Below, piece by piece: positions 3,311-20,238 of a DNA stretch of 64,000 nucleotides. Each line of letters begins with the position of its first letter. Positions within the stretch are counted from its first letter, which is position 1. Source of the DNA: Clostridiales bacterium. Its GTDB lineage: Bacteria > Bacillota > Clostridia > Saccharofermentanales > Saccharofermentanaceae. The translations under genes and the position numbers were made by a program. The stretch covers positions 3,063 through 67,062 of the forward strand of contig JAFZQI010000021.1 in assembly GCA_017620475.1 (NCBI GenBank), written 5' to 3'. The notes beneath the pieces are model-generated. The model ran no database searches and was not told the DNA's origin. It saw nothing but the letters and a program-made list of their open reading frames with translations.

Positions 3311-3468
3311 GCGTATCAGGTCAAGTGCTGTGCACTGGCTTATGGTAAACTGGCATTTGAGAAGAGTTCGGACGAAGACCTTCTTAACGTAGTCAAGGCG
3401 CTGTACCTTTATAACCGTGCGGCGGACACATATGTGGGCTGATCTTTATGACAGGGGAGGAGATGCAC

Positions 3469-3555: not shown

Positions 3556-3592
3556 AGAAGTCTTCCTTTTAGACTTTAAGCCGTGCGCTTTC

Positions 3593-3631
3593 ACGCCAAT
3601 CTTACGAAAATGTAAGATTGGCGTTGCTTTT
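3593..3631 (+). terminator. Rho-independent terminator
   Basis: ACGCCAATCTTAC (3593-3605) and GTAAGATTGGCGT (3612-3624) form a perfect 13-bp stem with a 6-nt loop, followed by TGCTTTTG. Confidence 0.8.
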
Positions 3632-3680
3632 GTAAGATAAATCAATGGTAAGATAGACTCCGGTTCGGTAAGATGAGACG
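3599..3680 (+). promoter_or_regulatory. GTAAGAT heptamer repeats upstream of the ABC transporter genes (candidate response-regulator boxes)
   Basis: GTAAGAT occurs at 3612, 3632, 3648 and 3668, and its complement ATCTTAC at 3599. The last two copies extend to GGTAAGATRGAC and are spaced 20 bp apart, about 75-105 bp upstream of the ATG at 3755. Confidence 0.3.
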
Positions 3681-3754
3681 AGAATAAGGGCGTACGGTGC
3701 TTTTGCAAAAGAACTGTGCCGTGCGGCTTTTGAGGAAAGAGAGGAAGATCTTCT

Positions 3755-4528: not shown

Positions 4529-4546
4529 TAGCGGAGGATTGCGGAT

Positions 4547-6568
4547 ATGAGAAGTATTTATGCAAGACTTGCGGGTAATGCCTTAAGCAAGAATAAGATC
4601 ATCTATGTTCCTTACATCATTTCTACGATCATGATGATCACCATCACCTATATTATTTTCGCGATGTCCACCGATCCGGTCATCTCGCAGATCGAAGGCG
4701 GTGCCTCGCTTCAGATGATCATGGTATTCGGAATCTTTGTCATGTACAATGTCTCGTTTTTCTTTCTCTTCGGCGTCAGCCGTTTCGTGATCAAGCAGAG
4801 AAAGAAGGAGCTGGGTCTTTACAGTGTCCTCGGCATGCAGAAGAAACACATCATCCGTGTGCAGTTTATCGAGAATCTCGCGGTGTTCCTTATTTCCTCC
4901 ATCTCCGGTACGGTCATCGGTATTGTTCTGGAAAAGGTCATGCAGCTCGGCGTACTGAAGGTGTACCATGCTGAAGCGGATTTCGGCTGGGATATCCAGA
5001 TTCTGCCTGCACTTGTCAATCTTGCCGCATTCGCGATTTTCTTCCTCGTCTTTTTCCTCATCAACGCAGTGGGGATCCTCCGCTCGAATACGCTCGAGTA
5101 CATGAAGGAGGAGAGTAAAGGGGAGAAGAGACCTAAGTCGAACTGGATCCTGGCGATCGCAGGGGGGCTGCTTCTGGGCGCAGGCTACTGGCTTTCTTTC
5201 CGTTCCCAGTCCGCTACAAAAGCACTGAATTTCTTCTTCTACGCGGTGATGCTGGTCATTTTAGGTACGCTGGCGCTGTTTGTGGCGGGAAGTATCACGA
5301 TCCTGAATACACTTAAGAAGAACAGAGAGTATTACTATAAGACTTCGCACTTCATTTCGGTGTCGGGCATGCTCTACCGTATGAAGAGAAATGCCGCTAC
5401 ACTGGCAACGATCTGTATATTTGCAACTATGGTACTCGTGACGCTTTCGTCGGTGCTGACGCTCTACACGACCGTTCGTTCTCTGGCGGAAACCTGGTAT
5501 CCGGTAGATTTTAATGTCACCCTCGATTCGAGTATCAAGCCGGAAGAAAAGAACGAATATATCGGCAGGCTTCGTGCCGGAGCGGAAGCTGTCGGTCTTC
5601 AGATCGATCAGATAGTCGAGTATACGTACTTCAACGAATTCGGATCCGTGGATAACGGATACTGTGTGGCGTATCCGAACTATGCGGCGTTTGATACATC
5701 CGAGATCTTCGTTCTGTCCCTCGAAACATATAATGCGGTAAACGGAACGGACCTTACTCTCGGCGAGAACGAAGTCGGAGTTTTTGTTAACGGCGGGAAG
5801 ATGCCGAGCGGGCAGATCCGGTTCCGTGCGCTGGATCCGGAATATCATGCGAAGCCGGAAGAATCGGAGCCGTTCACGATCGTACCGCTCCCGAAGGCGC
5901 CGAAGATGAGCTACGGAGGAAGTGTCAGCATTGCCGATGGCGTGTATTACTTCGTAATGCCCAGCGAGCAGGCTCAGAGGAAGGTCGGTGCCTATTTCTG
6001 CAGCTCGAGCGAAGAGGTAGAGATGCCCAGAAGCTATGTCCTGATCAATACATCCTCGGACCGTGCAACGCAGCTTCGCTTAAACGAAGACCTGAAAAAC
6101 AGGAGGAAGGAATATGCCTGTTGGAATATCGAATGCCGCGTGGAGAACATCGATGAGGTCACGGGTATCTACGGCGGACTTTTCTTCCTCGGGGTCTTCC
6201 TAAGTATCGCGTTCCTGACGATCACGATCCTCAATATGTACTTCAGCCAGCTTTTGCAGGGTTACGAAGACAGCAGGCGTTTCGCGATCATGAGGAAGGT
6301 AGGCCTTACCCGGAAAGAAATCAAGAGCTCGATCAATTCCCAGATCGTTGTGGTGTTCCTGCTTCCGCTCCTGGTTGCCGTGATCCATACGATGGCGGCT
6401 TATCCGATGGTAAACCGTATCCTTCGTCTTTTCGGCGGATGCGAGCCGAGATCCTTCTTGCTGATCCTGGCCGGATGTATCATCGTGTTCGCGCTGGTAT
6501 ATACGATCGCATATTTCTTCACGAGAAGGACATATCTCAAGCTTGTGAGTAACACCAAAATGGTATAA
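4547..6568 (+). CDS. ABC transporter permease, FtsX family (BceB-like)
   Basis: This 673-aa protein has about 10 predicted TM helices and a large soluble domain of roughly 200 aa between TM7 and TM8. That layout is typical of BceB-type permeases. Confidence 0.9.
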   Translation: MRSIYARLAGNALSKNKIIYVPYIISTIMMITITYIIFAMSTDPVISQIEGGASLQMIMVFGIFVMYNVSFFFLFGVSRFVIKQRKKELGLYSVLGMQKKHIIRVQFIENLAVFLISSISGTVIGIVLEKVMQLGVLKVYHAEADFGWDIQILPALVNLAAFAIFFLVFFLINAVGILRSNTLEYMKEESKGEKRPKSNWILAIAGGLLLGAGYWLSFRSQSATKALNFFFYAVMLVILGTLALFVAGSITILNTLKKNREYYYKTSHFISVSGMLYRMKRNAATLATICIFATMVLVTLSSVLTLYTTVRSLAETWYPVDFNVTLDSSIKPEEKNEYIGRLRAGAEAVGLQIDQIVEYTYFNEFGSVDNGYCVAYPNYAAFDTSEIFVLSLETYNAVNGTDLTLGENEVGVFVNGGKMPSGQIRFRALDPEYHAKPEESEPFTIVPLPKAPKMSYGGSVSIADGVYYFVMPSEQAQRKVGAYFCSSSEEVEMPRSYVLINTSSDRATQLRLNEDLKNRRKEYACWNIECRVENIDEVTGIYGGLFFLGVFLSIAFLTITILNMYFSQLLQGYEDSRRFAIMRKVGLTRKEIKSSINSQIVVVFLLPLLVAVIHTMAAYPMVNRILRLFGGCEPRSFLLILAGCIIVFALVYTIAYFFTRRTYLKLVSNTKMV

Positions 6569-8486: not shown

Positions 8487-8495
8487 TGGTATAAT
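8487..8495 (+). promoter_or_regulatory. Candidate extended -10 promoter element (TGgTATAAT) for the signalling cluster
   Basis: TGGTATAAT lies at 8487-8495, about 95 nt upstream of the first kinase start. I found no convincing -35. Confidence 0.35.
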
Positions 8496-8589: not shown

Positions 8590-11286
8590 ATGAGAGGTCC
8601 GCCGGTTATTGTGGGTATGAGGGGTTTCCGTGTAAAGATGACGGTAATGATCGTGCTGGTAGTGCTGGCAAGTTCCGGCCTGCTTTCACTGATGAGTTAT
8701 CGCCGTGCAAGAAACAGTATGGTTTCCCAATCGGAAGCCACCTATAGTCTCGCTGCGGAGAAATATGCGCAGGAATTGTCCTCCTGGGTCAATTCCAATG
8801 GTGCAATTGTCAACACGATCGCTGCGGAGATCGAGATCAGCGGCATCTGTGACTGGGGATATGAAGAATTCCATAATTATCTCAAGGCTGGATATGACAG
8901 CATTAACCGCGACGGCGTCATCTATGATATCTATTTCACCTATCCCGATAACACCATGGCCTGTGCTTCGGACTTCCAGACAGACGGTTCCGTGGATTAT
9001 GTCCATGACCGCTTGTGGTATACGATCGCGAAGGATACCCGGGAACTTTACTATTCTTCACCTTACCGTGATTCGGACACCAAACAGCCGATCATTACGA
9101 TATCGAAGGCAGTTTATTCCGGTGATGAATTGAAGGGCGTACTCGCCGCAGATATATTCGTTGATATCCTCGTGGATATCATCCATGAAGCCAATGTGGC
9201 AGATAACAGCTATGCTTTCCTGGTCGACCAGAACATGGGCATGATCGTCCATCCCAATCCGGAGTATTCTTTCGATGATGTACCGACCGGGATCCTGAAA
9301 TTCCCTGATTCTCCTTATGTGGATGTGGTGGCCAATATCCGTTCGAATTCCATGGATATGGTCTATGTGGAGGACTACGACGGGGTTACGCGCGGCATCG
9401 TGGTTTCCGAAATGGAGAACACCGGATGGCATGTCGGTATCGCCACCAGCAAAGCAGAGATGATGAAAGGCCTGAGCGGGCTGGTCCGTGGATTTCTGAT
9501 CGCCGCGGTCGTGGCCGTGTTCATCGGCGGTGCTTTTGCCGTAGTGCTGGCCTACGTACTGGATAAACTCAGAAGACAGCAGCAGGAGTACGAAGAACAT
9601 GTGCTGAAATTGGAAAAACAGGCCGCAGATGAAGCCAGCGAGGCGAAGAGCCGGTTCCTGGCGGATATGTCTCATGAGATCCGTACGCCGATCAATGCGA
9701 TCCTGGGCATGAATGAGATGATCATCCGCGAGACCGAGAGCAAGGAGATCATGGGGTATTCCAAGAATATCCGGCAAAGCGGACAGAACCTTCTTCAGCT
9801 GGTCAACAGTATTCTGGATTTCAGCAAGATCGAGAACGGGAAGATGGAGATCGTTCCCGGAAGCTACAGCGTCAAAGAACAGATCGGTTATATCATCAAT
9901 TCGATTTCCGAGCGGGCCAGAGCGAAGGGGCTGGAACTGAAAATGGATATCGATCCGCAGATCCCTTGTGAGCTTTACGGTGATAATACACGTATCAACG
10001 AAGTCATTATGAATCTGCTCACCAATGCCGTGAAGTACACGGAGAGTGGTTCGGTAACCCTTTCAATCAAGGGAAAAGACCGTAAAGAAGATCCTGAGAA
10101 GTCGATCCTTCTTTATGTCGAAGTAACGGACACGGGAATCGGCATTAAAGAAAGCGACATGGACAGGCTCTTTGAATCCTTCGAAAGACTCGATGTGGAG
10201 AGAAACCGCAATATCGAGGGAACGGGACTGGGGATCTCCGTTTGTACGAAACTTCTGGAACTTATGGACAGTAAGCTTCAGGTTCGAAGTGTATATGGAG
10301 AAGGCTCGACATTCTGGTTCGAGATCCGGCAGAAGATCGTTGAGGACGAACCTCTTGGCGATTACAAACTGGCACTTCTTGAAGAGGAGAATGAATTCGT
10401 CTATCACGAGTCTTTCCGTGCACCGACGGCCCGTATCCTCGTTGTGGATGATACGAAGATGAACATCCTGGTAACGGCGAATTTCCTTAAGAAGACCGGG
10501 GTTAGGATCAGCACGGCGCTTAGCGGTGAAGAGGCGATCCGGCTGGCTTCTGAAAATGAATACGATCTGATCCTGATGGATCAGCGGATGCCGGGTATGG
10601 ACGGTACCGAGGCCATGAAGCGGATCAAGGACCTGGAGAATAAGAAAAACACGAATACGCCTTTTATCTGCCTGACGGCAGATGTGATCCGCGGGGCAAG
10701 GGAGAGGTATCTTCAGGAAGGTTTTGATAATTACCTGATGAAACCGGTAGACAGCCGGGAACTGGAGAAGATGCTCCTCGATTATCTGCCGAAGGAGAAG
10801 ATCGAACTTACGGATTCGAAGGAAGAAGAAGTTCCGTCTTCCAGGGAAGGAAGCAATGCGGAACTCTTCGCGGATCTGGCCAAGGCCGGAGTCGACAGCA
10901 GAACGGGCCTTTTCTTCTGCCAGCGGGATGAGGATATGTATAAGTCGATCCTTTCGGAATTCTGCATCGAACAGAAGACCAAGTCGTTGAATCTTCAGAA
11001 TTGCTATGAGCGGAAAGACTGGAAGAATTATGAGATCCATGCCCACTCCTTGAAAAGCACTTCCAAGACGATCGGTGCAAAGAAGCTCTCCGAGCTTGCG
11101 GCGGATCTGGAGGATGCGGCAGGAGCGGAAGATGAGATGGCGCTCCGCGAAGGGCATGACAAGATGATGGAGATGTACTCGGCGATCGTCTCCGTGATCG
11201 AGAAGGATCTGGGTATGGAGAATACGGATATACGGGAAAATGATGAAATATTTGAATTCCTTCCTGAGGGAAACGGTGAAGGATAA
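8590..11286 (+). CDS. Hybrid sensor histidine kinase: TM, Cache-like periplasmic domain, TM, HisKA, HATPase, REC, Hpt
   Basis: An N-terminal TM helix is followed by an extracytoplasmic domain of about 270 aa and a second TM helix. Motifs seen: H-box (SHEIRTPINAILGM), HATPase (VTDTGIGI, GTGLGISV), receiver (ILVVDD...LILMDQRMPGMDG...KP) and Hpt-like HAHSLKSTSKTIGA. The start codon is uncertain (8590, 8617 or 8638). Confidence 0.9.
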   Translation: MRGPPVIVGMRGFRVKMTVMIVLVVLASSGLLSLMSYRRARNSMVSQSEATYSLAAEKYAQELSSWVNSNGAIVNTIAAEIEISGICDWGYEEFHNYLKAGYDSINRDGVIYDIYFTYPDNTMACASDFQTDGSVDYVHDRLWYTIAKDTRELYYSSPYRDSDTKQPIITISKAVYSGDELKGVLAADIFVDILVDIIHEANVADNSYAFLVDQNMGMIVHPNPEYSFDDVPTGILKFPDSPYVDVVANIRSNSMDMVYVEDYDGVTRGIVVSEMENTGWHVGIATSKAEMMKGLSGLVRGFLIAAVVAVFIGGAFAVVLAYVLDKLRRQQQEYEEHVLKLEKQAADEASEAKSRFLADMSHEIRTPINAILGMNEMIIRETESKEIMGYSKNIRQSGQNLLQLVNSILDFSKIENGKMEIVPGSYSVKEQIGYIINSISERARAKGLELKMDIDPQIPCELYGDNTRINEVIMNLLTNAVKYTESGSVTLSIKGKDRKEDPEKSILLYVEVTDTGIGIKESDMDRLFESFERLDVERNRNIEGTGLGISVCTKLLELMDSKLQVRSVYGEGSTFWFEIRQKIVEDEPLGDYKLALLEEENEFVYHESFRAPTARILVVDDTKMNILVTANFLKKTGVRISTALSGEEAIRLASENEYDLILMDQRMPGMDGTEAMKRIKDLENKKNTNTPFICLTADVIRGARERYLQEGFDNYLMKPVDSRELEKMLLDYLPKEKIELTDSKEEEVPSSREGSNAELFADLAKAGVDSRTGLFFCQRDEDMYKSILSEFCIEQKTKSLNLQNCYERKDWKNYEIHAHSLKSTSKTIGAKKLSELAADLEDAAGAEDEMALREGHDKMMEMYSAIVSVIEKDLGMENTDIRENDEIFEFLPEGNGEG

Positions 11287-11300
11287 GGGGGACAAAAAGT

Positions 11301-13682
11301 ATGGCGAAGTGGATCATGGTCGTCGATGACGATACCGCAAACCTAAAGATGGCAGGGCATATCCTGAGCAGAAACAACATGCGTGTGACGGCACTGAAGT
11401 CGGGACAGGCGCTTCTGGATTATATTCCGGATAAAGGTTTTCCGGATCTGATCCTTCTGGATATCAAGATGCCGGAGATGGACGGATTCGAGACGCTGAA
11501 GAGGCTTCGTGCGCACGAAGAATCGGTTCACGCCGATAAGACGCCCGTCATTTTCCTGACGGCGGATGAGGATACGAATACGGAGACGCGCGGATTTGAG
11601 ATGGGCGTTTCGGATTTTGTTCGAAAGCCATTTAATCCCGATGTGCTGATGCGGCGTATCGATAATGTTATGTCCAGCCGTTCTGAGATGCGGTCCTTAA
11701 AGAGCGAGGCGTCGATCGATAAGCTTACCGGTTTTTTGAATAAAGGCGCCAGTGAAAAAGAACTGACTCACGTTTGTTCCAACAGTACCGGATGCCTGAT
11801 GATGATCGACCTGGATTCCTTCAAGCCCGTAAACGATATCTACGGTCATGATATGGGAGATAAGGTCCTCTTCGGATTTGCACAGATCATTCGAAAAGCG
11901 GTCCCGGAAGGAAGCACCTGCGGACGTTTGGGCGGTGACGAATTCGTGGCTTTTGCCAAAGGTGTGCTTTCGGATCAGGTCGTCGCGGAGATCACCACCA
12001 AACTCAATAACGAAGTGGTGGCACTGGCCAAGGACCTGATGGGGGCGGAGATGGATATTCCGCTGGGCGCTTCGGTCGGCGCGATCTATGTACCGAGACA
12101 CGGCAACGATTATAATGCCCTGATCAAACTGGCAGACAAGTCCCTCTATACCGTCAAGAAAAACGGTAAGCACGGATTTTGTCTTTATAGCGTGGACTCC
12201 TTTGAAGATGAGCAGGAAGGGGTCGGACTTCCGGATATCCGGTCCATCTCCGGTATCCTGGGAGAAAGAACGATCCCGGATGTTGCCCTGCAGCTGGATA
12301 AGGATTCCTTTGCACCGGTGTATCGTTATATCATCCGATACACGATCCGGAACCGGATCAGCGCGTGCAAAGTTCTTTTCACGCTGGAGCCGGCGGAAGG
12401 GATTTCCGGAGAAGAAGCCACCAACCTTCTCGATGAGTTCGGAAACCATATCCGCCAGTCCCTGCGTAAGTCCGATATCCTTATGAGAAACCGTAACAAC
12501 CAGTACTTCGTTTTCCTGACGGATATCCGTGAAGATTCCTATGAAAAAGTCATCCATCACATCGTGGAGACGTGGGAACATGAGCACGGAAATGTACTGT
12601 CGGTAACGCACGAAAGCGAATTCCTGGGGAATGATTACGAGAAGCGGTTCAATAAGAAGAAAGACCGAAATGTCATCATCGTGGATGACGACGCGATGAA
12701 CCTGCAGGTGGCGGGTAAGATCTTAAGCGCCGGCGGGATACGTGTCCGGGCGATTAAATCGGGGAAAGCTCTTCTGGAACATATCGAGCAGACGAGGGAG
12801 TATCCGGATCTGATCCTTCTGGATATCAAGATGCCGGAAATGGATGGCTTTGAGACGTTGAGAAGACTTCGCCTGATCAGTTCTGAGGCGGCCAAGGTTC
12901 CGGTCGTTTTCCTGACGGCGGACGAGAGTTCGGGCGCGGAGAGCAAAGGACTCTCGCTGGGCGCGATGGACTTCATCAGAAAGCCTTTCGTACCGGAAGT
13001 GCTCATGCTTCGTGTCCAGCATCTGATCGAACTGGTCACGCTGCAGAATCAGCTGAGTTATGAAGTCCAGATGAAGACGCAGGAGAACAGGAATCTTCTG
13101 GTACACGTGGTCGAGTCCCTGGCTGCGGCGATCGATACCAAGGATATTTATACGCGCGGCCATTCCGGAAGAGTAGCGGAGTATTCCAGGATGATTGCCG
13201 CAAGAGCCGGTTATTCTGAATTCCGCCAGGAGGAAGTCTACATGATGGGCCTTTTGCACGATGTCGGCAAGATCGGTGTTCCTAATAGCATCATCAATAA
13301 GAGTACCCGCCTGACGGATGAAGAGTTTGCCCTGATCAAGAAGCATCCGGGAATGGGAGCCCAGATCCTGGAGAGTATTAAAGAGGATCCGGAGCTGACC
13401 ATCGCGGCACGCTGCCACCATGAACGGTTCGATGGCAAAGGTTATCCGGAGGGCCTTTCCGGATTTGATATTCCGGAAGTGGCGCGTATTATTGCCGTTG
13501 CGGATGCGTATGATGCGATGTCCAGTGATAGAAGCTACCGTGGAAAACTTACCGAAGAACAGATCATTTCCGAGCTTACCGAAGGAAAAGGGTCGCAGTT
13601 TGATCCGAAGTTTGCGGACATTATGCTCGCAATACTTAAGGAGAAACCCAACCTGAAGCAGAAGGAGGATACTCATGAGTAA
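11301..13682 (+). CDS. Dual-receiver c-di-GMP enzyme: REC, GGDEF, degenerate GGDEF-like region, REC, HD-GYP
   Basis: REC1 (IMVVDDD...LILLDIKMPEMDG...RKPF), GGDEF (RLGGDEFVAF at 11931-11945), REC2 (IIVDDD...LILLDIKMPEMDG...RKPF) and HD-GYP (HSGRV, LLHDVGKIGVP, HHERFDGKGYP) are all present. Confidence 0.9.
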   Translation: MAKWIMVVDDDTANLKMAGHILSRNNMRVTALKSGQALLDYIPDKGFPDLILLDIKMPEMDGFETLKRLRAHEESVHADKTPVIFLTADEDTNTETRGFEMGVSDFVRKPFNPDVLMRRIDNVMSSRSEMRSLKSEASIDKLTGFLNKGASEKELTHVCSNSTGCLMMIDLDSFKPVNDIYGHDMGDKVLFGFAQIIRKAVPEGSTCGRLGGDEFVAFAKGVLSDQVVAEITTKLNNEVVALAKDLMGAEMDIPLGASVGAIYVPRHGNDYNALIKLADKSLYTVKKNGKHGFCLYSVDSFEDEQEGVGLPDIRSISGILGERTIPDVALQLDKDSFAPVYRYIIRYTIRNRISACKVLFTLEPAEGISGEEATNLLDEFGNHIRQSLRKSDILMRNRNNQYFVFLTDIREDSYEKVIHHIVETWEHEHGNVLSVTHESEFLGNDYEKRFNKKKDRNVIIVDDDAMNLQVAGKILSAGGIRVRAIKSGKALLEHIEQTREYPDLILLDIKMPEMDGFETLRRLRLISSEAAKVPVVFLTADESSGAESKGLSLGAMDFIRKPFVPEVLMLRVQHLIELVTLQNQLSYEVQMKTQENRNLLVHVVESLAAAIDTKDIYTRGHSGRVAEYSRMIAARAGYSEFRQEEVYMMGLLHDVGKIGVPNSIINKSTRLTDEEFALIKKHPGMGAQILESIKEDPELTIAARCHHERFDGKGYPEGLSGFDIPEVARIIAVADAYDAMSSDRSYRGKLTEEQIISELTEGKGSQFDPKFADIMLAILKEKPNLKQKEDTHE

Positions 13683-16236
13683 TCCAAATGACAACAATGA
13701 ACAGAATGAATTGTTTCATTCTTCGCACTTGATGCTGCTGATCACCTACACGGCGTTTACCGTGATCCTGATCGGTGAATCCTTTCTGATGGGGTGGGAA
13801 AAATGGCCGCTTCTGCTGATCTCTGCGGCAGTTATCGTTTGCTGGATCATGCATTTCAGGCAGGAGGCTTCTTCTTCGGTCAGAATTTGGATCTATGCGG
13901 TCCTGATGATGTGTACGTCGTTTTTCTATGGTATTCACCTAACGAGTACCTTTGATCTGGCGGTCGTTATGGCTGCGCTGATCGTGCTGTTTACGATGAC
14001 TGGTATGAAGTCGATGATCACGTTATGCCAAGTGACCTATTATATTACCATGGCCTACGATTTTACGCTGATGGTGATGAATGGTGATAAGTTCGACGGC
14101 CTTGTTCTTTCGAGGTCCGGACTTCATCTGGCCATGATCTTCTTTATCGGGTGGTTTGCCAAGACCATCATCGATAAGTGGACGCAGGTCCTGTCCAGTA
14201 CGAAGGATGAAGTCAAGCAGCTGTCGGAGGCAACCGAGAGACTGAATGACTTCCTGGCGAATGTTTCCCACGAGATCAGAACGCCGGTCAATGCGGTCAT
14301 TGGTCTGACGAGCATCTGTATCGATAAATCCCAGAACCGGGAGATCTACGGGGACCTGATTGCAGTCCGGGATGCCGGACGTAAGGTTGCGGAACAGATC
14401 AGTGATATCCTTGACTATTCGGAGATCGACCGGAAGAAGGCGGTCAGTAACAACGAAGACTATATGCTTTCCTCGGTCCTTCACGATTTGGTATCGGAGA
14501 TCCGCCATGGTAAATCCAAAGACGTGGAGCTGATCATCGATGTGGATCCGGCGATCCCGGCGGTGATGAATTCCGACGTCTCCAAGCTGAAAAAGATCCT
14601 GAGAGCGCTGATCTCCAATGGTTTGAAGTATACCCATAAAGGCGGTGTCTATGTCAGGATCTCCTGCGTCACGCAGGCATACGGAGTGAATCTCTGTATC
14701 GAGGTGACCGACACGGGAATCGGTATGACCGACTACGAATTGGAGAAGGTCTACGATAACTTCTATCAGGCGGATTCCGGCCGTTCGAGAATGGGCGGCG
14801 GATTAGGACTCGGTTTGGCTATCGTCTCCGGCTTTGTTTCACTGCTTGGCGGTTTCATGACGATCTCCAGTAAACCCGGCGTCGGTACTACCGTAAATGT
14901 CAGCCTTCCGCAGAAGGTGGTCGATCCGACAAGCTGTATGTCGGTAGCAAATCCGGATGAGCTGTGTATCGGCGCGTATCTGCATTTTGAAAAGTATACC
15001 GATCCGGCTGTCCGCGATTATTACAACTCTATGGTACTGAATATCGTTAAAGGCCTCGGCGTACAGATGCACCGCGTAAATAATCCGGAGGACCTAAAGC
15101 TCCTGCACGATACGATCCATATGACCCACCTGTTTGTGGCTGAAGAAGAGTACGGCTCCAATGTGGAACTTCTGGAAGAAATGGCTAAGGATATGTTTGT
15201 GGTCGTTGTGGCCAATGAAGACTTCGAGCTTCCTGAGCATGCCAATGCAAGAGTCATGGTAAAGCCGTTCTACTGCTTCCCGGTCGTGTCGATCCTGAAT
15301 ATGAATATCCATGATAAACAGAGCACCGGCAAGAAGATGTACTGCCGCGGTGTAAAGACACTGATCGTAGACGATGAGCCGATGAACCTCGTGGTAGGAA
15401 AGAGTATCTTCAGAAGTTACGGAATGGATGTCTATACGGTACTGAGCGGGCCGGAAGCCATCGATATCTGCCGCGAAATGGCATTCGACATTATCTTTAT
15501 GGACCACATGATGAGTGGAATGGACGGTGTCGAAGCCATGAAACGTATCCGTTCCGATGTCGCCGGAAAGAACGGTGAGATCCCGATCGTTGCCCTTACG
15601 GCTAATGCCATGAGCTCCGCCAAGCAGATGTTCCTTGCGGAAGGCTTTGACGGATTCGTGAGTAAGCCGATCGAAACCGAAGAACTCGAGCGCGTGATGA
15701 GACAGGTGCTTCCGAAGTCTTCAGTGACGATGGAGGAAATCGATGAGGTTGAGGAGAAACCGGACTATGAAGCCCTTCGGAACAAGTCGAAGGAGAAACA
15801 GGAAGCACCGAAGTCGATCCATGATCTGCTGCGGCCCTTGGGGATCGATACACAGTCAGGACTCAAATACTGCATGGGAGATATGGAGTTCTATAAGTCC
15901 CTGCTTTCCCAGTTTGCCTCGGAAGCCAAAGAGAAAACCCCGCTTATCGGACGGTATTATGAATCCGGCGAGTGGCATGACTACGAGATCCTGGTTCATG
16001 CACTCAAGAGTACGGCGAAGATGATCGGCGCGGATGATCTTTCCGAAAAAGCGAAGGCTCTTGAAATGGCGGCAAAAGAGAAGAGAGAAGAGTATATCGC
16101 CGAGAATCACTACGACATGATGAGTGAGTATTCCCGAGTGATCAAGGGAATCGAGTCCGCTCTCGGAGGAGAGCAGGAAGACGAGGAGATCCTTGAGTTT
16201 AACCCTGTTGTTGAGGAAGGAGGCGATGAGCAATGA
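13675..16236 (+). CDS. Hybrid sensor histidine kinase: multi-TM sensor, HisKA, HATPase, pseudo-receiver-like region, REC, Hpt
   Basis: A strong AAGGAGG RBS precedes the ATG at 13675, which overlaps the upstream stop. About 6 N-terminal TM helices are followed by an H-box (SHEIRTPVNAVIGL), HATPase (VTDTGIGM, GGLGLGLAIV), a receiver (LIVDDEP...IIFMDHMMSGMDG...SKP) and Hpt-like VHALKSTAKMIGA. Confidence 0.9.
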   Translation: MSNPNDNNEQNELFHSSHLMLLITYTAFTVILIGESFLMGWEKWPLLLISAAVIVCWIMHFRQEASSSVRIWIYAVLMMCTSFFYGIHLTSTFDLAVVMAALIVLFTMTGMKSMITLCQVTYYITMAYDFTLMVMNGDKFDGLVLSRSGLHLAMIFFIGWFAKTIIDKWTQVLSSTKDEVKQLSEATERLNDFLANVSHEIRTPVNAVIGLTSICIDKSQNREIYGDLIAVRDAGRKVAEQISDILDYSEIDRKKAVSNNEDYMLSSVLHDLVSEIRHGKSKDVELIIDVDPAIPAVMNSDVSKLKKILRALISNGLKYTHKGGVYVRISCVTQAYGVNLCIEVTDTGIGMTDYELEKVYDNFYQADSGRSRMGGGLGLGLAIVSGFVSLLGGFMTISSKPGVGTTVNVSLPQKVVDPTSCMSVANPDELCIGAYLHFEKYTDPAVRDYYNSMVLNIVKGLGVQMHRVNNPEDLKLLHDTIHMTHLFVAEEEYGSNVELLEEMAKDMFVVVVANEDFELPEHANARVMVKPFYCFPVVSILNMNIHDKQSTGKKMYCRGVKTLIVDDEPMNLVVGKSIFRSYGMDVYTVLSGPEAIDICREMAFDIIFMDHMMSGMDGVEAMKRIRSDVAGKNGEIPIVALTANAMSSAKQMFLAEGFDGFVSKPIETEELERVMRQVLPKSSVTMEEIDEVEEKPDYEALRNKSKEKQEAPKSIHDLLRPLGIDTQSGLKYCMGDMEFYKSLLSQFASEAKEKTPLIGRYYESGEWHDYEILVHALKSTAKMIGADDLSEKAKALEMAAKEKREEYIAENHYDMMSEYSRVIKGIESALGGEQEDEEILEFNPVVEEGGDEQ

Positions 16237-16369
16237 GAAAAGTTCTGCGTTATATTTTCAAGCCTTCCTCCCATGATCAGGAAGCGGTCCGTTCCATCTT
16301 CCATGGCTGGGCACACACAACGCAAATCATCGTTTTTTTCGTTACACTGATCTGCATATTATTCCTGGG

Positions 16370-18988
16370 ATGGACTTTCGCCCAGCCCAGTATATTCATG
16401 AACAGCCTTTCTATCACCGGACGCTGTATGCGGTCACACTGGTTCTGCTGACGATCTGGCTGGCGATCATGCGTTATGCCGACAAGGATTATGAAAAACG
16501 GTACAGGACCCTATATGGTCTCAATGCGCTTTTGGCTGTGGCTATGTACATCTTCGTATTAGGACTTTGCTATATCAACCTGCACTTTAATTCATTCGTG
16601 GATACGACACTTTTTATGACAGTGGCGCTGCTGATACCGATGTGCCTTTATATCAACCCGATCGAATATGTGATTCTCGTTCTACTTTCCTATGCCGGCA
16701 TGATCCCCATGCTTTACCATGCCTATGCGGGATTGCATCTGATCCAGAGAAATGCATTCCTCAACTTCCTGATCTTCGCCGCCTTCCAGCTGTCCATGGG
16801 TGTACTCATGCTCTATACCAAATACTGTCTCTATAAAGAGATTGTTGTCGAGACGCGTCAACATCAGGAGATCGAGATGCTCAATAAAGCCCAGAACAGC
16901 TTCTTCTCGAATATGAGCCATGAGATCAGGACCCCGATCAATACGATCATCGGCCTCAATGAGATGATCCTTCGTGAAGATGTCAGTGAAGAGGTTATGG
17001 AAGATGCGGCCAACATCAAGTCGGCAGGTAAGATGCTATTGAACCTCATCAACGACATCCTCGATATGTCGAAGATCCAGTCGGGACGTATGCAGCTTCT
17101 GGAAAATCCGTATCAAACGGGGGAGATGCTTTCAGATCTCGTCGGTATGATGTGGATCCGTGCCAAAGAGAAGAAACTGGATTTCCACGTGGATGTTTCT
17201 CCGGATATTCCCAATGAACTCGTCGGAGATGAAGTGCGTATCAAGCAGATCCTGATCAATGTTCTCAATAATGCCATCAAGTACACAAAGGAAGGATCCG
17301 TGACGCTTTCGGTACAATGTGAAAACATCGATGACAATAAGTGCAACATGATCTATACCGTCATTGATACCGGTATCGGAATCAAGCCGGAAGATATCCC
17401 GTATCTGTTCTCGGCCTTTAAGCGCGTGGATGAAGACTCCAATAAGCATATCGAAGGCACCGGCTTAGGTCTTTCCATTGTAAAACAACTGGTCGATCTC
17501 ATGGGCGGTAAGGTGACGGTAAACAGCGTCTATACCAAGGGCTCGACATTCATCATCGAGATTCCGCAGACCGTGGAGACCCAGTCGAAAATGGGACAGT
17601 ACGACTTCGATAAGTCGAAGTCCGGAGCACAGAAGAAAGAATACGTTCCCCGATTTGAAGCGCCTACGGCCCGTGTACTGGTCGTCGATGACAATGAGGC
17701 GAATCTCATGGTTGTAAGTAAGCTTCTTCGTGAAACGAAGGTTCGGATCGATACGGCGATAAGCGGAGCCGAAGCCTTGAAGAAAACGCTGAACATCCAT
17801 TATGACGTGATCTTTATGGACCATCTTATGCCGGAAATGGACGGTATTGAGTGCAGACGGCGTATCGTGGATCAGACGGGCGGAAGATGCCGTGAGACGA
17901 GTATCGTGATCCTGACGGCGAACGCTGACGAAGAGAACCGGGCACTGTATGTCAAAGAAGGTTTTGACGGGTATCTGGTCAAGCCGGTAAGCGGTGAAGA
18001 ACTGGAGAATGAACTTTACCGGCTCCTCCCGAAGGAAATCGTACACATTACCGGTAACCGGAGTGAGATCGCTGAAGAGACGATCTCCTGGATGCATGGC
18101 GAGAAGAAGAGAAAGAGAGTCATCATCACGACGGAGAGCGTGGCCGATCTTCCGCCGGAGATCATTTCCAAGTACGGTATCGCGGTACTTCCCCATAAGG
18201 TTAAGACGGCCGAAGGCCTTTTTAAGGACGGCAAGGAGATCGATACTAAGGGCGTTCTCAAATATATGGAGGACCGGGAGCACAGTGTTTTGCCGATGGC
18301 GCCGAATGTAAAGGAGGTCGAAGAATTCTTCGCAAAGCAGTTATCCGTGGCGAATAATATTATCCACATCTCGATCTCCAGTAAAGTGGAGAACAGCGGA
18401 TATCATGTGGCAACAGAGGCGGCGAAGTCCTTCGATAGCGTATTCGTATTCGATTCCGGACACCTTTCAAGCGGACAGGGCATATTGGTGATCGAGGCCT
18501 GCCGTATGGCGGACGAAGGAAAGAGCCCGGAGGAGATCCTGGCGCGGATCGAGCGTTTAAAGAAGAAAGTCCATACCAGCTTTATCGTAGATAATCTGGA
18601 CTTCCTAGCCCGTTCGAAACAGGTCGGGAAACGCATCGCGAACCTGGTCAATTCCCTGATGGGAAGACCGGTGCTGGTCCTTCGCAAAGGAAAGATGGGA
18701 CTGGGCATGATCTATTTCGGATCGAGAAGAAGAGCATGGAAGAGCTATATCAACACATGCCTTGCCGGAGATAAGCCCATCGATACGCGAGTTCTTTTCG
18801 TAACGTATGTTGGTATCAATAAGAAGGAAATGGACTGGATCAGTGAGCAGATCAATAAGAAGATGACATTTGATGAGATCTATTTCAGGCAGGCATCACC
18901 GGCGATTGCGGTTAACTGCGGTCCGGGTACATTCGGACTTCTTCTGCGTGAGAGGGATAAGGAGGATAAGGACAATAAGGACAACTGA
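16370..18988 (+). CDS. Hybrid sensor histidine kinase fused to a C-terminal DegV-like domain (multi-TM, HisKA, HATPase, REC, DegV)
   Basis: H-box (SHEIRTPINTIIGL), HATPase (VIDTGIGI, GTGLGLSIV) and receiver (VLVVDDNE...VIFMDHLMPEMDG...VKP) motifs are present. The last ~280 aa resemble DegV/FakB (VIITTESVADLP..., ...ISISSKVENSGY..., ...AVNCGPGTFGLL). The N-terminus may really begin at 16233 in another frame (see findings). Confidence 0.85.
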   Translation: MDFRPAQYIHEQPFYHRTLYAVTLVLLTIWLAIMRYADKDYEKRYRTLYGLNALLAVAMYIFVLGLCYINLHFNSFVDTTLFMTVALLIPMCLYINPIEYVILVLLSYAGMIPMLYHAYAGLHLIQRNAFLNFLIFAAFQLSMGVLMLYTKYCLYKEIVVETRQHQEIEMLNKAQNSFFSNMSHEIRTPINTIIGLNEMILREDVSEEVMEDAANIKSAGKMLLNLINDILDMSKIQSGRMQLLENPYQTGEMLSDLVGMMWIRAKEKKLDFHVDVSPDIPNELVGDEVRIKQILINVLNNAIKYTKEGSVTLSVQCENIDDNKCNMIYTVIDTGIGIKPEDIPYLFSAFKRVDEDSNKHIEGTGLGLSIVKQLVDLMGGKVTVNSVYTKGSTFIIEIPQTVETQSKMGQYDFDKSKSGAQKKEYVPRFEAPTARVLVVDDNEANLMVVSKLLRETKVRIDTAISGAEALKKTLNIHYDVIFMDHLMPEMDGIECRRRIVDQTGGRCRETSIVILTANADEENRALYVKEGFDGYLVKPVSGEELENELYRLLPKEIVHITGNRSEIAEETISWMHGEKKRKRVIITTESVADLPPEIISKYGIAVLPHKVKTAEGLFKDGKEIDTKGVLKYMEDREHSVLPMAPNVKEVEEFFAKQLSVANNIIHISISSKVENSGYHVATEAAKSFDSVFVFDSGHLSSGQGILVIEACRMADEGKSPEEILARIERLKKKVHTSFIVDNLDFLARSKQVGKRIANLVNSLMGRPVLVLRKGKMGLGMIYFGSRRRAWKSYINTCLAGDKPIDTRVLFVTYVGINKKEMDWISEQINKKMTFDEIYFRQASPAIAVNCGPGTFGLLLRERDKEDKDNKDN

Positions 18989-18996
18989 GTCCTTCC

Positions 18997-19097
18997 TCCG
19001 AAAGATCCCCGAAGGTTATTCGAAGGATAGCCAAAAGATAATCGAAAGAGATCCGAAAGGTAGTCGAAAGACGGTCAAAAGAAAGCCGAAAGAAAGA
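18997..19097. repeat. Nine tandem degenerate 11-bp repeats (YCRAARGnnnn)
   Basis: CGAAAG/CGAAGG/CAAAAG cores start at 18999, 19010, 19021, 19032, 19043, 19054, 19065, 19076 and 19087, so the spacing is exactly 11 bp. The array lies between the kinase stop and the terminator. Confidence 0.9.
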
Positions 19098-19129
19098 GGG
19101 TTGCCGGTGAAAGCAACCCTCTTTTGTTG
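19095..19129. terminator. Bidirectional Rho-independent terminator between convergent genes
   Basis: AGAGGGTTGC (19095-19104) and GCAACCCTCT (19113-19122) form a 10-bp stem, followed by TTTTGTTG on the plus strand. The sequence after the stem is also T-rich on the minus strand. Confidence 0.8.
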
Positions 19130-19152
19130 TGATTTCTGTTTGATCGAAGCGA

Positions 19153-20238
19153 TCAGATAGGATTGGTGTCGAAAGACATCGGAGCGGAACGGCCCATGGT
19201 CTTCTCGAGATCCTGTACGTCATAAGCAGCATCCAGCGCGGTCTTCCAGGAGATGAAGCCTTCCTTGTAAAGACGGATAAGTTCATCGTTCAGAGTGTGC
19301 ATGCCAAGGCTTCTGCCGGACTGCATGGCACCCGGGATCATGTTGATCTTGTCTTCAAGGATGAGGTTCTTGATGGCGTTGGTGCCGACCATGATCTCAG
19401 TTGCCAGAATACGGCCTGTACCATCGGTGATCGGGAGGAGCTGCTGACAGATAACACCACGGATGTTTGTGCCGAACTGGGAACGGATGATCTCCTGCTT
19501 GTCTGCCGGAGAACCATCGATGATACGGTTGATGGTCTGAGCGGCACTGTGGGTATGCAGTGTGGAAAGAACGAGGTGACCGGTCTCAGCGGCGGTGATG
19601 GCAGCTGCGATCGTCTCGAAGTCACGCATCTCACCTACGAAGATGATATCCGGGTCTTCACGGAGTGAAGAGTGGAGAGCATTAGCGAAAGAGTCGGTAT
19701 CACGATGGAGCTCGCGCTGATGGATCATCGCGTGATCATGAGGATAGATGTACTCGATCGGGTCCTCGATCGTGATTACGTGCTTGGATTCATTCTTGTT
19801 GATGTAGTCAACGATGGCTGCCATGGTCGTCGTCTTACCGGAACCCGTAGGACCGGTTACGAGGATGATACCGTTCTTCGCGGTGGCCATGGTCTTAATG
19901 ACTTCCGGAAGTCCGAGATCTTCGAACTCAGGGATCTGAGCCATCAGGAGGCGGATGCTGCAGGCGAGGTTGTTACGCTGGTGATACACATTTGCTCTGA
20001 TTCGAACCTCATTGTCGATCATAAGACCGAGGTCAAGATCTTCACCGGCTTCTACGCGCTTGATTTCTTCATCAGACAGGATCGTATAGATCATGGCCAG
20101 AGATTCCTCAGCGGTCGGACGGGCATCCAGAATGTGAAGTACACCGTACCTTCTTACAGCAAGATTCGTACCAACGGTAATATGGACATCAGAACAATCT
20201 TGTTCAATAGCATAATCCATTAATTGCTCAAAAGTCAT
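19153..20238 (-). CDS. pilT: Type IV pilus retraction ATPase PilT
   Basis: The 361-aa product has Walker A (GPTGSGKTT) and a PilT-family pattern throughout (DVHI..G......R..G, TLHT.SA..T..RI). A GGAGGTG RBS is present. Confidence 0.9.
   Translation of the reverse strand: MTFEQLMDYAIEQDCSDVHITVGTNLAVRRYGVLHILDARPTAEESLAMIYTILSDEEIKRVEAGEDLDLGLMIDNEVRIRANVYHQRNNLACSIRLLMAQIPEFEDLGLPEVIKTMATAKNGIILVTGPTGSGKTTTMAAIVDYINKNESKHVITIEDPIEYIYPHDHAMIHQRELHRDTDSFANALHSSLREDPDIIFVGEMRDFETIAAAITAAETGHLVLSTLHTHSAAQTINRIIDGSPADKQEIIRSQFGTNIRGVICQQLLPITDGTGRILATEIMVGTNAIKNLILEDKINMIPGAMQSGRSLGMHTLNDELIRLYKEGFISWKTALDAAYDVQDLEKTMGRSAPMSFDTNPI

What the first reader, a model, noticed from the sequence alone, without database searches (positions are those of the whole stretch)
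8590..18988. Four-gene signalling cluster: three differently wired hybrid histidine kinases around one dual-receiver GGDEF/HD-GYP protein
Seen in the sequence:
- Four consecutive same-strand genes have minimal or overlapping junctions. There is a 14-nt gap at 11286/11301. The ATG at 13675 overlaps the stop at 13680-13682. The ATG at 16233 overlaps the stop at 16234-16236.
- Gene 1 is TM, a Cache-like extracytoplasmic domain, TM, HisKA, HATPase, REC and Hpt.
- Gene 2 is REC, GGDEF, a degenerate GGDEF-like region, REC and HD-GYP.
- Gene 3 is a ~6-TM sensor, HisKA, HATPase, a pseudo-receiver, REC and Hpt.
- Gene 4 is a multi-TM sensor, HisKA, HATPase, REC and DegV, with no Hpt.
- The cluster contains no DNA-binding response regulator.

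Inference: the only apparent output is c-di-GMP synthesis (GGDEF) versus degradation (HD-GYP). Each activity sits behind its own receiver domain. Two Hpt domains could feed the two receivers, giving a push-pull, multi-input phosphorelay that sets c-di-GMP level. I cannot tell from the sequence alone whether this exact combination has been described.
Basis: partly seen in the sequence, partly recalled or inferred. Interest (0 to 1): 0.8.

Follow-up and report, generated by a model that had tools for sequence, protein, structure and literature searches.

The report
Multi-kinase phosphorelay controlling a c-di-GMP enzyme
A rumen Clostridia operon encodes three sensor kinases, one fused to a fatty-acid-binding-type (DegV) domain, next to a single response regulator that can probably both make and break the second messenger c-di-GMP; it is a real, conserved but unstudied variant of a familiar type of signalling circuit.

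Summary
Pfam confirms the standard domains, and structure models support the degenerate GGDEF and, more weakly, the pseudo-receiver.

One error: gene 4 is not one ORF here. The window lacks one T at 16406-16408, splitting it into 16233-16451 and 16370-18988. A near-identical second assembly has the intact 918-aa gene.

Across about 80 related genomes the conserved core is three genes: g2 (REC-GGDEF-GGDEF*-REC-HD-GYP), g3 (TM-HK-pseudoREC-REC-Hpt) and g4 (TM-HK-REC-DegV). g1 is an add-on of the closest clade.

- The g3/DegV-kinase pair always carries exactly one Hpt, on either kinase.
- g2's two receivers are 57-59% identical paralogues, and they occur with a single Hpt in most genomes. This argues against "one Hpt per receiver".
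- The degenerate GGDEF keeps an invariant RxxD site (84/84), while the catalytic GGDEF has lost its own. This suggests c-di-GMP feedback through the dead domain.
- The DegV domain lacks FakB's catalytic Arg and His, so it looks like a ligand sensor rather than a fatty-acid kinase subunit.

Verdict: a new variant of a known kind, of moderate interest. The sign of regulation and the push-pull idea remain untested.

The parts
8487..8495 (+). Possible extended -10 promoter element (TGgTATAAT) in the 224-nt AT-rich spacer upstream of g1
   Evidence: Read directly from the sequence. The consensus scan did not list it because no good -35 is present. Inference only.
8590..11286 (+). g1: hybrid histidine kinase, TM-dCache_1-TM-HisKA-HATPase_c-REC-Hpt (898 aa). 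The true start may be 8617 or 8638.
   Evidence: Pfam: dCache_1 aa 43-284, HisKA 352-417, HATPase_c 464-581, REC 616-729, Hpt 787-853. Present only in the closest clade, L002-L008. Orthologues are 882 aa.
11301..13682 (+). g2: response regulator REC1-GGDEF-GGDEF*(degenerate)-REC2-HD-GYP (793 aa)
   Evidence: Pfam. D54, D508, GGDEF 211-215, HD 653-654 and HHExxDGxGYP 706-716 are invariant in 121 homologues.
11313..11660 (+). g2 REC1 (aa 5-120)
   Evidence: It is 57-59% identical to REC2.
11709..12170 (+). g2 catalytic GGDEF domain (aa 137-290), with an intact GGDEF motif and no RxxD I-site (PEGS at 202-205)
12186..12665 (+). g2 degenerate GGDEF domain (aa 296-455). RNNQY replaces GGDEF; RxxD (R389-K-S-D392) lies five residues upstream and is invariant.
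   Evidence: The PDB profile search aligns RKSDILMRNRKNQYF with RRSDVVARYGGDEF. AF2 model pLDDT is 73.5. Foldseek top hits are GGDEF domains. RxxD is kept in 84/84 homologues.
12672..13034 (+). g2 REC2 (aa 458-578)
13122..13610 (+). g2 HD-GYP domain (aa 608-770)
   Evidence: Pfam HD_5 E 4e-34. H621, H653, D654, H682, H706, H707, E708, D735 and GYP are invariant.
13675..16236 (+). g3: hybrid histidine kinase, multi-TM sensor-HisKA-HATPase_c-pseudoREC-REC-Hpt (853 aa). Its start overlaps the g2 stop by 8 nt.
   Evidence: Pfam. Hydropathy. Adjacent to g2 homologues in 44 loci.
14947..15348 (+). g3 pseudo-receiver (aa 425-558): a CheY-like fold without the acidic pocket. T-H-L-F stands where the phospho-Asp would be; the K-P-F motif is kept.
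   Evidence: AF2 model. Foldseek hits are mostly receiver domains, E 1e-3 to 5e-2, TM about 0.55-0.6. No sequence-level hit.
15361..15693 (+). g3 REC (aa 563-673)
15901..16092 (+). g3 Hpt (aa 743-806, His in HALKST)
   Evidence: It is 46% identical to the g1 Hpt.
16233..16451 (+). g4 N-terminal fragment (72-codon frame): the ancestral start, with an ATGA overlap on the g3 stop, and the first TM helix
   Evidence: Homologues begin MK..L.YIFKPSS.
16406..16408 (+). Frameshift site: a TTT run that is TTTT in the second assembly. Adding one T restores a 918-aa ORF.
16370..18988 (+). g4 long ORF as it stands (872 aa): multi-TM sensor-HisKA-HATPase_c-REC-DegV, no Hpt
   Evidence: Pfam (REC aa 436-548, DegV 585-859, E 6.5e-45). 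Identical to the NCBI-annotated P0001.
18122..18946 (+). g4 DegV domain. The full DegV fold aligns end to end with solved DegV/FakB proteins, but the FakB Arg173 equivalent is Gln and the His270 equivalent is Asn.
19092..19135 (+). Terminator-like hairpin (13-bp stem, then a T-rich tail) between the g4 stop and the stop of the convergent gene
   Evidence: No comparable site inside the cluster.
19153..20238 (-). Convergent PilT-like type IV pilus ATPase (T2SSE, 361 aa), kept next to the cluster in the closest clade. A possible c-di-GMP-linked neighbour, not shown to be part of the system.
   Evidence: Pfam. Conserved in L002-L004, L006 and L008, and adjacent to g2 in L012.

Best explanation
This is an operon from a rumen Saccharofermentans-like Clostridia genome. 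It encodes a multi-kinase His-Asp-His-Asp phosphorelay that converges on one bifunctional c-di-GMP enzyme.

- **Core.** The evolutionary core is three genes: g2, g3 and g4. g1 is a later, lineage-specific extra input.
- **Kinases.** g3 and g4 are membrane sensors with unrelated multi-TM input domains. Each autophosphorylates and passes the phosphoryl group to its own receiver.
- **Shared Hpt.** g4 has no Hpt, so its receiver most likely uses the Hpt of g3 (or g1) in trans.
- **Transfer to g2.** The Hpt then phosphorylates g2. Its two receivers are close paralogues, so they are probably served by the same donor(s) rather than by separate ones.
- **Expected effects.** By analogy with WspR/DgcR-type Rec-GGDEF cyclases and RpfG-type Rec-HD-GYP phosphodiesterases, phosphorylation of REC1 should control the cyclase through its coiled-coil stalk, and phosphorylation of REC2 should control the HD-GYP.
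- **Feedback.** The dead GGDEF domain between them keeps a perfectly conserved RxxD site. It most likely binds c-di-GMP, giving product feedback that the catalytic domain has lost.
- **DegV.** The DegV domain of g4 is most likely a cytoplasmic lipid or fatty-acid-type ligand sensor that modulates phosphotransfer. It is not a fatty-acid kinase subunit.

Shown here: the domains, motif conservation, synteny, Hpt reciprocity and receiver paralogy. Inferred: every phosphotransfer step, the direction of regulation, c-di-GMP binding by GGDEF* and ligand binding by DegV.
For: - **Domains.** Pfam supports all standard domains.
- **Operon structure.** Junctions are a 14-nt gap and two start/stop overlaps. 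The only strong terminator-like hairpin lies after g4.
- **Synteny.** A g2-family gene sits next to a g3-type kinase and a DegV kinase in 44 loci. These include loci with permuted order (L028, L058) or inverted strand (L037). g1 is present only in L002-L008.
- **Hpt reciprocity.** In about 39 loci g3 has the Hpt and the DegV kinase has none. In 5 loci (L021-23, L059, L077) the g3-type kinase lacks the Hpt and the DegV kinase carries it. No locus has both or neither.
- **Receiver paralogy.** REC1 and REC2 are 57-59% identical, against 30-38% to the kinase receivers. Hpt g1 and Hpt g3 are 46% identical.
- **Catalytic competence.** All catalytic and acceptor motifs are invariant in 121 homologues.
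- **GGDEF*.** It has the GGDEF fold. RxxD is invariant in 84/84 homologues, while the catalytic-domain RxxD is lost in every protein that has REC2.
- **DegV.** It aligns end to end with solved DegV/FakB proteins. It has Gln for FakB1 Arg173 and Asn for His270 in 120/120 orthologues. R173A FakB1 is catalytically inactive (PMC8892158).
- **DegV position varies.** It occurs after REC, before the TM/dCache sensor, or between REC and Hpt in related kinases. That fits a modulatory ligand-binding module.
Against: - No biochemical or expression data exist for any member, and no paper on this architecture was found.
- If one donor phosphorylates both receivers and both enzymes are activated, the result would be a futile cycle. 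The sign of at least one arm must therefore differ from the textbook analogues, and I cannot tell which.
- Eight loci have a five-domain g2 with other HK-REC-Hpt kinases and no DegV kinase within 10 kb. The g3/g4 pair is therefore not obligatory.
- Paralogy of the receivers does not prove shared specificity; a few residues can insulate them.
- The pseudo-receiver and GGDEF* models have only moderate confidence (pLDDT 71-74).
- In this particular window g4 is frameshifted, so here it may lack its first TM helix or be non-functional, unless this is an assembly error.
Confidence: 0.6

Rival explanations
1. One reading: an orthogonal push-pull circuit. One Hpt (for example g1's) feeds REC1 and switches on the cyclase. 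The other Hpt (g3's) feeds REC2 and switches on the HD-GYP. Different kinases would then push c-di-GMP in opposite directions.
For: This window has two Hpt domains and two intact receivers, each receiver directly upstream of one catalytic domain. All motifs are conserved. REC1 and REC2 do differ at 41-43% of positions, including in helix alpha-1.
Against: g1 and its Hpt are absent from most genomes that carry the same two-receiver protein, so two receivers do not need two Hpts. The receivers are each other's closest paralogues, and the two Hpts are 46% identical. REC2 exists without HD-GYP in 8-9 genomes.
Confidence: 0.12
2. DegV is an output, not an input. g4 would be a self-contained kinase-receiver-effector protein in which receiver phosphorylation controls lipid or fatty-acid binding, release or hand-over by DegV. 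The cluster would then have a second output (lipid metabolism) besides c-di-GMP, and g4's receiver need not talk to any Hpt.
For: In g4 the DegV domain sits C-terminal to the receiver, the usual place of an output domain. More than 100 representative clusters share HK-REC-DegV. g4 has no Hpt.
Against: In related kinases DegV is N-terminal to the sensor, or lies between REC and Hpt. That is hard to reconcile with a receiver-controlled effector. Hpt reciprocity between g3 and the DegV kinase ties the DegV kinase into the relay. The residues needed for FakB function in fatty-acid phosphorylation are replaced.
Confidence: 0.15
3. g2 is effectively monofunctional. One of its two 'active' domains serves only as a regulatory or binding module, as in many GGDEF-EAL tandems. 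The system would then be an ordinary phosphorelay to a cyclase or to a phosphodiesterase.
For: In tandem proteins one domain is typically inactive (stated in PMC6205966). HD-GYP is dispensable in types C and D, which suggests the cyclase arm is the primary output.
Against: GGDEF, HD, HHExxDGxGYP and the metal-ligand residues are invariant across 121 homologues. The protein already has a clearly degenerate domain, which shows that unused catalytic motifs do decay in this lineage.
Confidence: 0.1

Closest known systems
RpfC/RpfG of Xanthomonas (hybrid kinase HK-REC-Hpt, then REC-HD-GYP regulator)
   Same: A hybrid kinase with its own receiver and Hpt lies next to a receiver-HD-GYP protein, and the output is c-di-GMP degradation rather than DNA binding.
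   Different: Here the regulator also carries an active-looking cyclase, a dead GGDEF and a second receiver. Two or three kinases are involved, one of them without an Hpt. The proteins are not orthologous and come from Clostridia. The comparison rests on architecture and my own knowledge of RpfCG.
NahK/NarR (Lpl0330/Lpl0329) of Legionella: a kinase controlling a bifunctional receiver-GGDEF-EAL enzyme
   Same: A two-component kinase phosphorylates a regulator that both makes and degrades c-di-GMP, and phosphorylation shifts the balance by lowering cyclase activity (PMC11237717).
   Different: That system has one receiver, an EAL rather than an HD-GYP, one kinase, no Hpt relay, no degenerate GGDEF and no DegV.
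WspR / DgcR / PleD receiver-GGDEF cyclases with RxxD product inhibition
   Same: The layout is receiver, helical stalk, then GGDEF, and an RxxD site sits five residues upstream of the GGDEF position. DgcR, WspR and PleD structures are among the fold matches.
   Different: In g2 the catalytic domain has lost RxxD and a separate dead GGDEF domain keeps it. The stand-alone 430-aa relatives keep RxxD in both domains.
Degenerate-GGDEF c-di-GMP receptors (PelD, PopA, SgmT)
   Same: A GGDEF fold with a destroyed active site and a retained RxxD. PelD is among the fold hits. SgmT is a kinase that uses such a domain as a c-di-GMP receptor (PMC3509222, listed).
   Different: Here the receptor-like domain is embedded between an active cyclase and a receiver-HD-GYP unit within one polypeptide. 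Binding is untested.
FakB/DegV fatty-acid-binding proteins (S. aureus FakB1, T. thermophilus DegV 2dt8)
   Same: The full-length DegV fold (Pfam E 6.5e-45; 2dt8 E 1e-22) and the Ser95 equivalent are kept.
   Different: It is fused to a hybrid kinase. Arg173 is Gln and His270 is Asn (both invariant), and the Thr61/Thr62 motif is absent. It is therefore unlikely to present a fatty acid to FakA.

Membership tests
Hybrid histidine kinase (HisKA family) with phosphorelay | HisKA with H-box His, HATPase_c, and a receiver with a phospho-acceptor Asp | tested here: met
   g1, g3 and g4 all score above the Pfam gathering thresholds. The SHEIRTP H-box and the MD(H/Q) acceptor Asp can be read in the translations.
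Hybrid histidine kinase (HisKA family) with phosphorelay | A C-terminal Hpt domain with a conserved His | tested here: met
   g1 (31.2 bits) and g3 (28.0 bits) exceed the 24.6-bit cut-off, with the His in H(S/A)LKST. g4 has none.
Hybrid histidine kinase (HisKA family) with phosphorelay | Actual phosphotransfer HK to REC to Hpt to REC(g2) | not testable with these tools
   This needs in vitro phosphotransfer profiling.
GGDEF diguanylate cyclase | GGDEF domain with an intact GG(D/E)EF active-site motif | tested here: met
   Pfam E 7e-37. GGDEF is invariant in 121 and in 84 homologues.
GGDEF diguanylate cyclase | RxxD inhibitory site five residues upstream of GGDEF (common but not obligatory) | tested here: not met
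   The catalytic domain has PEGS at 202-205. The site is lost in all homologues that have REC2.
HD-GYP c-di-GMP phosphodiesterase (RpfG type) | HD dyad, HHExxDGxGYP motif and metal-ligand His/Asp residues, preceded by a receiver | tested here: met
   HD_5 E 4e-34. H621, H653, D654, H682, H706, H707, E708, D735 and G714-Y-P716 are invariant.
HD-GYP c-di-GMP phosphodiesterase (RpfG type) | Hydrolysis of c-di-GMP | not testable with these tools
   An enzyme assay is needed.
Degenerate-GGDEF c-di-GMP receptor domain (PelD/PopA/SgmT-like) | GGDEF fold with a degenerate active site | tested here: met
   Foldseek: nearly all of the top ~38 PDB hits are GGDEF domains, best E 6e-6. RNNQY stands in place of GGDEF.
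Degenerate-GGDEF c-di-GMP receptor domain (PelD/PopA/SgmT-like) | RxxD retained in register | tested here: met
   R389-x-x-D392 aligns with RRSD of the T. maritima cyclase. It is invariant in 84/84 homologues down to about 40% identity.
Degenerate-GGDEF c-di-GMP receptor domain (PelD/PopA/SgmT-like) | Binding of c-di-GMP | not testable with these tools
   A binding assay is needed.
DegV family (Pfam PF02645) | Full-length match to the DegV profile and to solved DegV structures | tested here: met
   Pfam 154 bits against a cut-off of 27, profile positions 3-277 of 280. 2dt8 E 1e-22 over residues 3-277.
FakB-type fatty-acid kinase subunit | Carboxylate hydrogen-bond network (Thr62, Ser95, Ser171, His270) and catalytic Arg173 (PMC8892158) | tested here: not met
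   By motif alignment, the Arg173 equivalent is Gln (120/120), the His270 equivalent is Asn (120/120), and the TT motif is missing. The Ser171 equivalent is Ser in this window but Ala in 104/120 orthologues. Only the Ser95 equivalent is kept. The mapping goes through 2dt8 and the paper's residue numbers, not through a structure superposition.
FakB-type fatty-acid kinase subunit | Binds a fatty acid and partners with FakA | not testable with these tools
   No FakA search of the genome was possible, because only one 64-kb window was available.
Pseudo-receiver domain | CheY-like (beta/alpha)5 fold lacking the acidic phospho-acceptor pocket | tested here: inconclusive
   The AF2 model (pLDDT 71, 7-sequence alignment) mostly matches receivers at E 1e-3 to 5e-2 and TM about 0.55-0.6. 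There is no sequence-level similarity. DD and the acceptor Asp are absent, while K-P-F is kept.

The most novel reading that the evidence does not exclude
DegV-coupled hybrid kinases form a widespread, unstudied class of two-component sensors: more than 100 representative clusters at 50% identity, with DegV placed after REC, before the sensor, or between REC and Hpt. In them a FakB-derived domain that has lost the kinase-substrate residues would read an intracellular lipid or fatty-acid-type ligand and gate His-Asp phosphotransfer. In rumen Clostridia this would couple lipid status to c-di-GMP, through a shared Hpt and a bifunctional cyclase/phosphodiesterase with a dedicated dead-GGDEF feedback sensor.
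Probability: 0.3. Interest if true: 0.7.

Novelty: new variant of a known kind. Interest (0 to 1): 0.5.

Why it matters
Phosphorelays that end in c-di-GMP enzymes are well known. Three features here have, as far as I could find, no studied example:

1. A single regulator with two paralogous receivers, an active cyclase, an active-looking HD-GYP and a dead GGDEF. The dead GGDEF alone keeps the product-binding RxxD site.
2. A kinase pair that shares one Hpt, with the Hpt moving between the two proteins during evolution.
3. A DegV (fatty-acid-binding fold) domain built into hybrid kinases.

If the DegV domain senses lipids, it would be a direct link between fatty-acid status and second-messenger signalling in rumen bacteria, where unsaturated fatty acids are a major stress. 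Several carriers are cultured Hungate-collection isolates (AE2032, YAD3003, AB4001, G41, P6A3, NE2001, AC2028), so the predictions can be tested. The finding is not a new kind of system, and nothing about its physiology is shown yet.

Tried and rejected
- **hhalign, g2 middle domain against the g2 GGDEF domain:** only P = 0.05. The question was settled instead by a PDB profile search and a structure model.
- **g3 pseudo-receiver:**
  - No Pfam hit even at E = 10.
  - No meaningful PDB sequence hit with one sequence or with a 33-sequence profile.
  - hhalign against true receivers gave P = 0.1-0.2.
  - The last homologue search, run with that alignment, returned only 6 fragments, so the model rests on a shallow alignment.
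- **g3 and g4 membrane sensors:** no Pfam family and no detectable relation to each other.
- **Rfam scan of the whole window**, looking for example for c-di-GMP riboswitches: nothing.
- **Promoter/terminator scan:** counts equal chance. Only the hairpin after g4 stands out.
- **Literature searches** for DegV with histidine kinases or receivers, and for GGDEF-HD-GYP proteins: no study of this architecture.
- **Classing the extra HK-REC-Hpt kinases next to g2 homologues as 'g1-type':** they are 40-51% identical to g1 over the cytoplasmic part, but g1 and g4 are equally similar in the kinase core (45%). The class is too loose to carry an argument.
- **Link to the upstream OmpR-type regulator/kinase/ABC module (440-6568):** rejected. 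It is a self-contained Bce-like unit separated from the cluster by two metabolic genes.

Full report
**1. Observation**

The region holds four + strand ORFs: 8590-11286 (g1, 898 aa), 11301-13682 (g2, 793 aa), 13675-16236 (g3, 853 aa) and a fourth ending at 18988.
- a 14-nt spacer between g1 and g2;
- an 8-nt start/stop overlap between g2 and g3;
- an ATGA overlap at 16233-16236.

The ATG at 16233, however, opens a frame that stops at 16451. The long ORF ending at 18988 is in another frame and begins at 16370.

Homologues are 907-918 aa and start MK..L.YIFKPSS, like the short frame. A second assembly of the same population (L004) differs from the window by 2 mismatches and 1 gap over 22,382 bp. 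That gap is one T missing from the run at 16406-16408, and L004 carries an intact 918-aa gene. Inserting one T restores the ORF. This is either an assembly error or a rare variant.

**2. Domains**

Pfam confirms all standard domains above their gathering scores:

| Gene | Domains |
|---|---|
| g1 | dCache_1, HisKA, HATPase_c, REC, Hpt |
| g2 | REC, GGDEF, REC, HD_5/HD (HD-GYP) |
| g3 | HisKA, HATPase_c, REC, Hpt |
| g4 | HisKA, HATPase_c, REC, DegV (E 6.5e-45), no Hpt |

*g2 middle region (aa 296-455).* It has no Pfam hit. A profile of 18 homologues finds diguanylate cyclases as four of its six hits in the PDB, including the best two, at weak E-values. It aligns RKSDILMRNRKNQYF with RRSDVVARYGGDEF. 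An AF2 model (pLDDT 73.5) matches GGDEF domains in nearly all of the top ~38 Foldseek hits. It is a degenerate GGDEF domain.

*g3 region 425-558.* It gives no sequence-level signal. An AF2 model (pLDDT 71, shallow alignment) mostly matches CheY-like receivers at modest scores. It lacks the acidic pocket and keeps K-P-F. The pseudo-receiver call is plausible but not firm.

**3. Origin and conservation**

The closest proteins come from rumen metagenome-assembled genomes labelled Clostridiales or Saccharofermentans. They also come from Hungate isolates: Butyrivibrio sp. AE2032 and Ruminococcaceae bacterium YAD3003, R-25 and AB4001.

I fetched 84 loci and annotated them by BLAST with domain-sized queries, with Pfam checks of key variants.

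| Arrangement | Loci |
|---|---|
| g1, g2, g3, g4 in this order | 7 (the closest clade, at least 80% g2 identity), usually with the convergent PilT-like gene |
| g2, g3, g4 without g1 | 19 |
| Same three genes, permuted or inverted | 3 (L028, L058, L037) |
| g2 without HD-GYP (REC-GGDEF-GGDEF*-REC), then g3, g4 | 8 |
| REC-GGDEF-GGDEF*, then g3, g4 | 2 |
| Variants with the Hpt on the DegV kinase | 5 (L021-23, L059, L077) |
| Five-domain g2 next to other HK-REC-Hpt kinases, no DegV kinase | 8 |
| Stand-alone ~430-aa REC-GGDEF-GGDEF* without conserved kinases | 24 (Selenomonadaceae, Treponema, Butyrivibrio) |

The conserved functional unit is therefore g2 + g3 + g4, and g1 is an accessory input. 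Survival of the association through rearrangement is good evidence of functional linkage.

**4. Wiring**

*Hpt reciprocity.* In about 39 loci the g3-type kinase carries the Hpt and the DegV kinase has none. In five loci the g3-type kinase has no Hpt and the DegV kinase has one, as HK-REC-DegV-Hpt or DegV-dCache-HK-REC-Hpt. No locus has both or neither. The simplest reading is that the pair shares one Hpt. In this window, g4's receiver would then use the Hpt of g3 (or g1) in trans.

*Receiver and Hpt paralogy.* g2's REC1 and REC2 are 57-59% identical (hhalign E 1.6e-55). Each is only 30-38% identical to the kinase receivers, which form their own group at 41-46%. The two Hpt domains are 46% identical over 123 residues.

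*Consequence.* The two-receiver protein occurs with a single Hpt in most genomes, and REC2 occurs without HD-GYP in 8-9 genomes. Together with the paralogy, this argues against 'one Hpt per receiver'. It favours several kinases converging, through interchangeable Hpts, on both receivers. It does not exclude insulation by a few residues.

**5. The enzyme**

In 121 homologues the following are invariant: D54, D508, GGDEF 211-215, HD 653-654, HHExxDGxGYP 706-716 and the further metal-ligand residues. Both activities are therefore probably real.

In 84 homologues down to about 40% identity:
- the degenerate domain never has a GGDEF motif but always keeps RxxD, five residues upstream of the GGDEF-equivalent position;
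- the catalytic domain has RxxD only in the stand-alone 430-aa relatives, and has lost it (PEGS and similar) in every protein that acquired REC2.

I infer that c-di-GMP feedback has been delegated to the dead domain, as in the receptor-type GGDEF domains of PelD, PopA and SgmT. Binding is untested.

**6. The DegV domain**

It aligns end to end with solved DegV/FakB proteins (2dt8 E 1e-22). FakB1 holds the fatty-acid carboxylate through Thr62, Ser95, Ser171 and His270. It also needs Arg173 for catalysis: R173A is inactive (PMC8892158).

By motif alignment, the g4 orthologues compare as follows:
- Gln for Arg173 (120/120);
- Asn for His270 (120/120);
- no TT motif;
- Ser at the Ser171 position in this window, but Ala in 104/120;
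- Ser95 kept.

A search of 1.84 billion representatives with the REC-DegV part finds more than 100 clusters of ~890-aa HK-REC-DegV proteins, down to 31% identity. It also finds DegV-TM-HK-REC, DegV-dCache-HK-REC-Hpt and REC-DegV-Hpt forms. A domain that can sit before the sensor, after the receiver, or between receiver and Hpt behaves like a ligand-binding modulator rather than a receiver-controlled effector. I therefore favour a sensor role, with the output role as a rival. No publication on such fusions was found.

**7. Operon signals and surroundings**

- The only strong terminator-like hairpin lies after g4, at 19092-19125.
- A TGnTATAAT element lies at 8487-8495, upstream of g1.
- No Rfam family matches anywhere in the window.
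- Upstream (440-6568) lies a separate OmpR-type regulator/kinase/ABC-FtsX module.
- The rest of the window is housekeeping.

**8. Comparison and verdict**

The system works like RpfC/RpfG (hybrid kinase to receiver-HD-GYP). It also works like NahK/NarR (a kinase controlling a bifunctional cyclase/phosphodiesterase; PMC11237717). It combines a dual-receiver bifunctional enzyme, a dedicated dead-GGDEF site, a shared Hpt and a DegV-bearing kinase, and I could find no study of that combination.

It is a new variant of a known kind. Its push-pull wiring is possible, but the comparative data do not favour it. Interest is moderate (0.5). The most novel element is the DegV-kinase family.

Noticed in passing
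window 16406-16408: A single-T deletion in a T run splits g4 into a 72-codon fragment and an 872-aa ORF; the 872-aa ORF is what NCBI annotates. A near-identical assembly has the intact 918-aa gene.
   Followed up: yes
window 19153-20238 (- strand): A PilT-like type IV pilus ATPase is convergent with g4 and conserved next to the cluster in the closest clade. In L012 it lies divergently upstream of g2. This hints at pilus-related c-di-GMP output but nothing more.
   Followed up: partly
window 440-6568: An OmpR-type response regulator (440-1258), a histidine kinase (1194-2315), an unannotated 375-aa ORF (2183-3310), an ABC ATPase (3755-4528) and an FtsX permease (4547-6568). This is a Bce-like peptide-sensing module, separate from the cluster.
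   Followed up: partly
L003 4947-7333: In one metagenome assembly the g2 orthologue is split into a 554-aa ORF and a 238-aa HD-GYP ORF. This is another frameshift or a real split.
   Followed up: no
L060-L076, L078-L084: Stand-alone ~430-aa REC-GGDEF-GGDEF* proteins in Selenomonadaceae, Treponema, Butyrivibrio and Oribacterium keep RxxD in both the active and the dead GGDEF domain. They look like the ancestral unit from which g2 was built.
   Followed up: partly
L021 7125-11789; L022 and L023 likewise; P0305: Very large kinases (1554-1568 aa) have DegV at the N-terminus, followed by two dCache modules, HK, REC and Hpt. In effect they are a fusion of the g4 DegV with a g1-type kinase.
   Followed up: partly
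window 8590-8640: The start of g1 is ambiguous, with in-frame ATGs at 8590, 8617 and 8638. Orthologues are 882 aa, which favours 8638. An out-of-frame ATG at 8577 follows the best Shine-Dalgarno-like GGAGG.
   Followed up: no
window 52102-56677 (- strand): Two long - strand ORFs (720 and 851 aa) have no Pfam hit and overlap + strand ORFs of 390-617 aa. Which strand is coding was not resolved.
   Followed up: no
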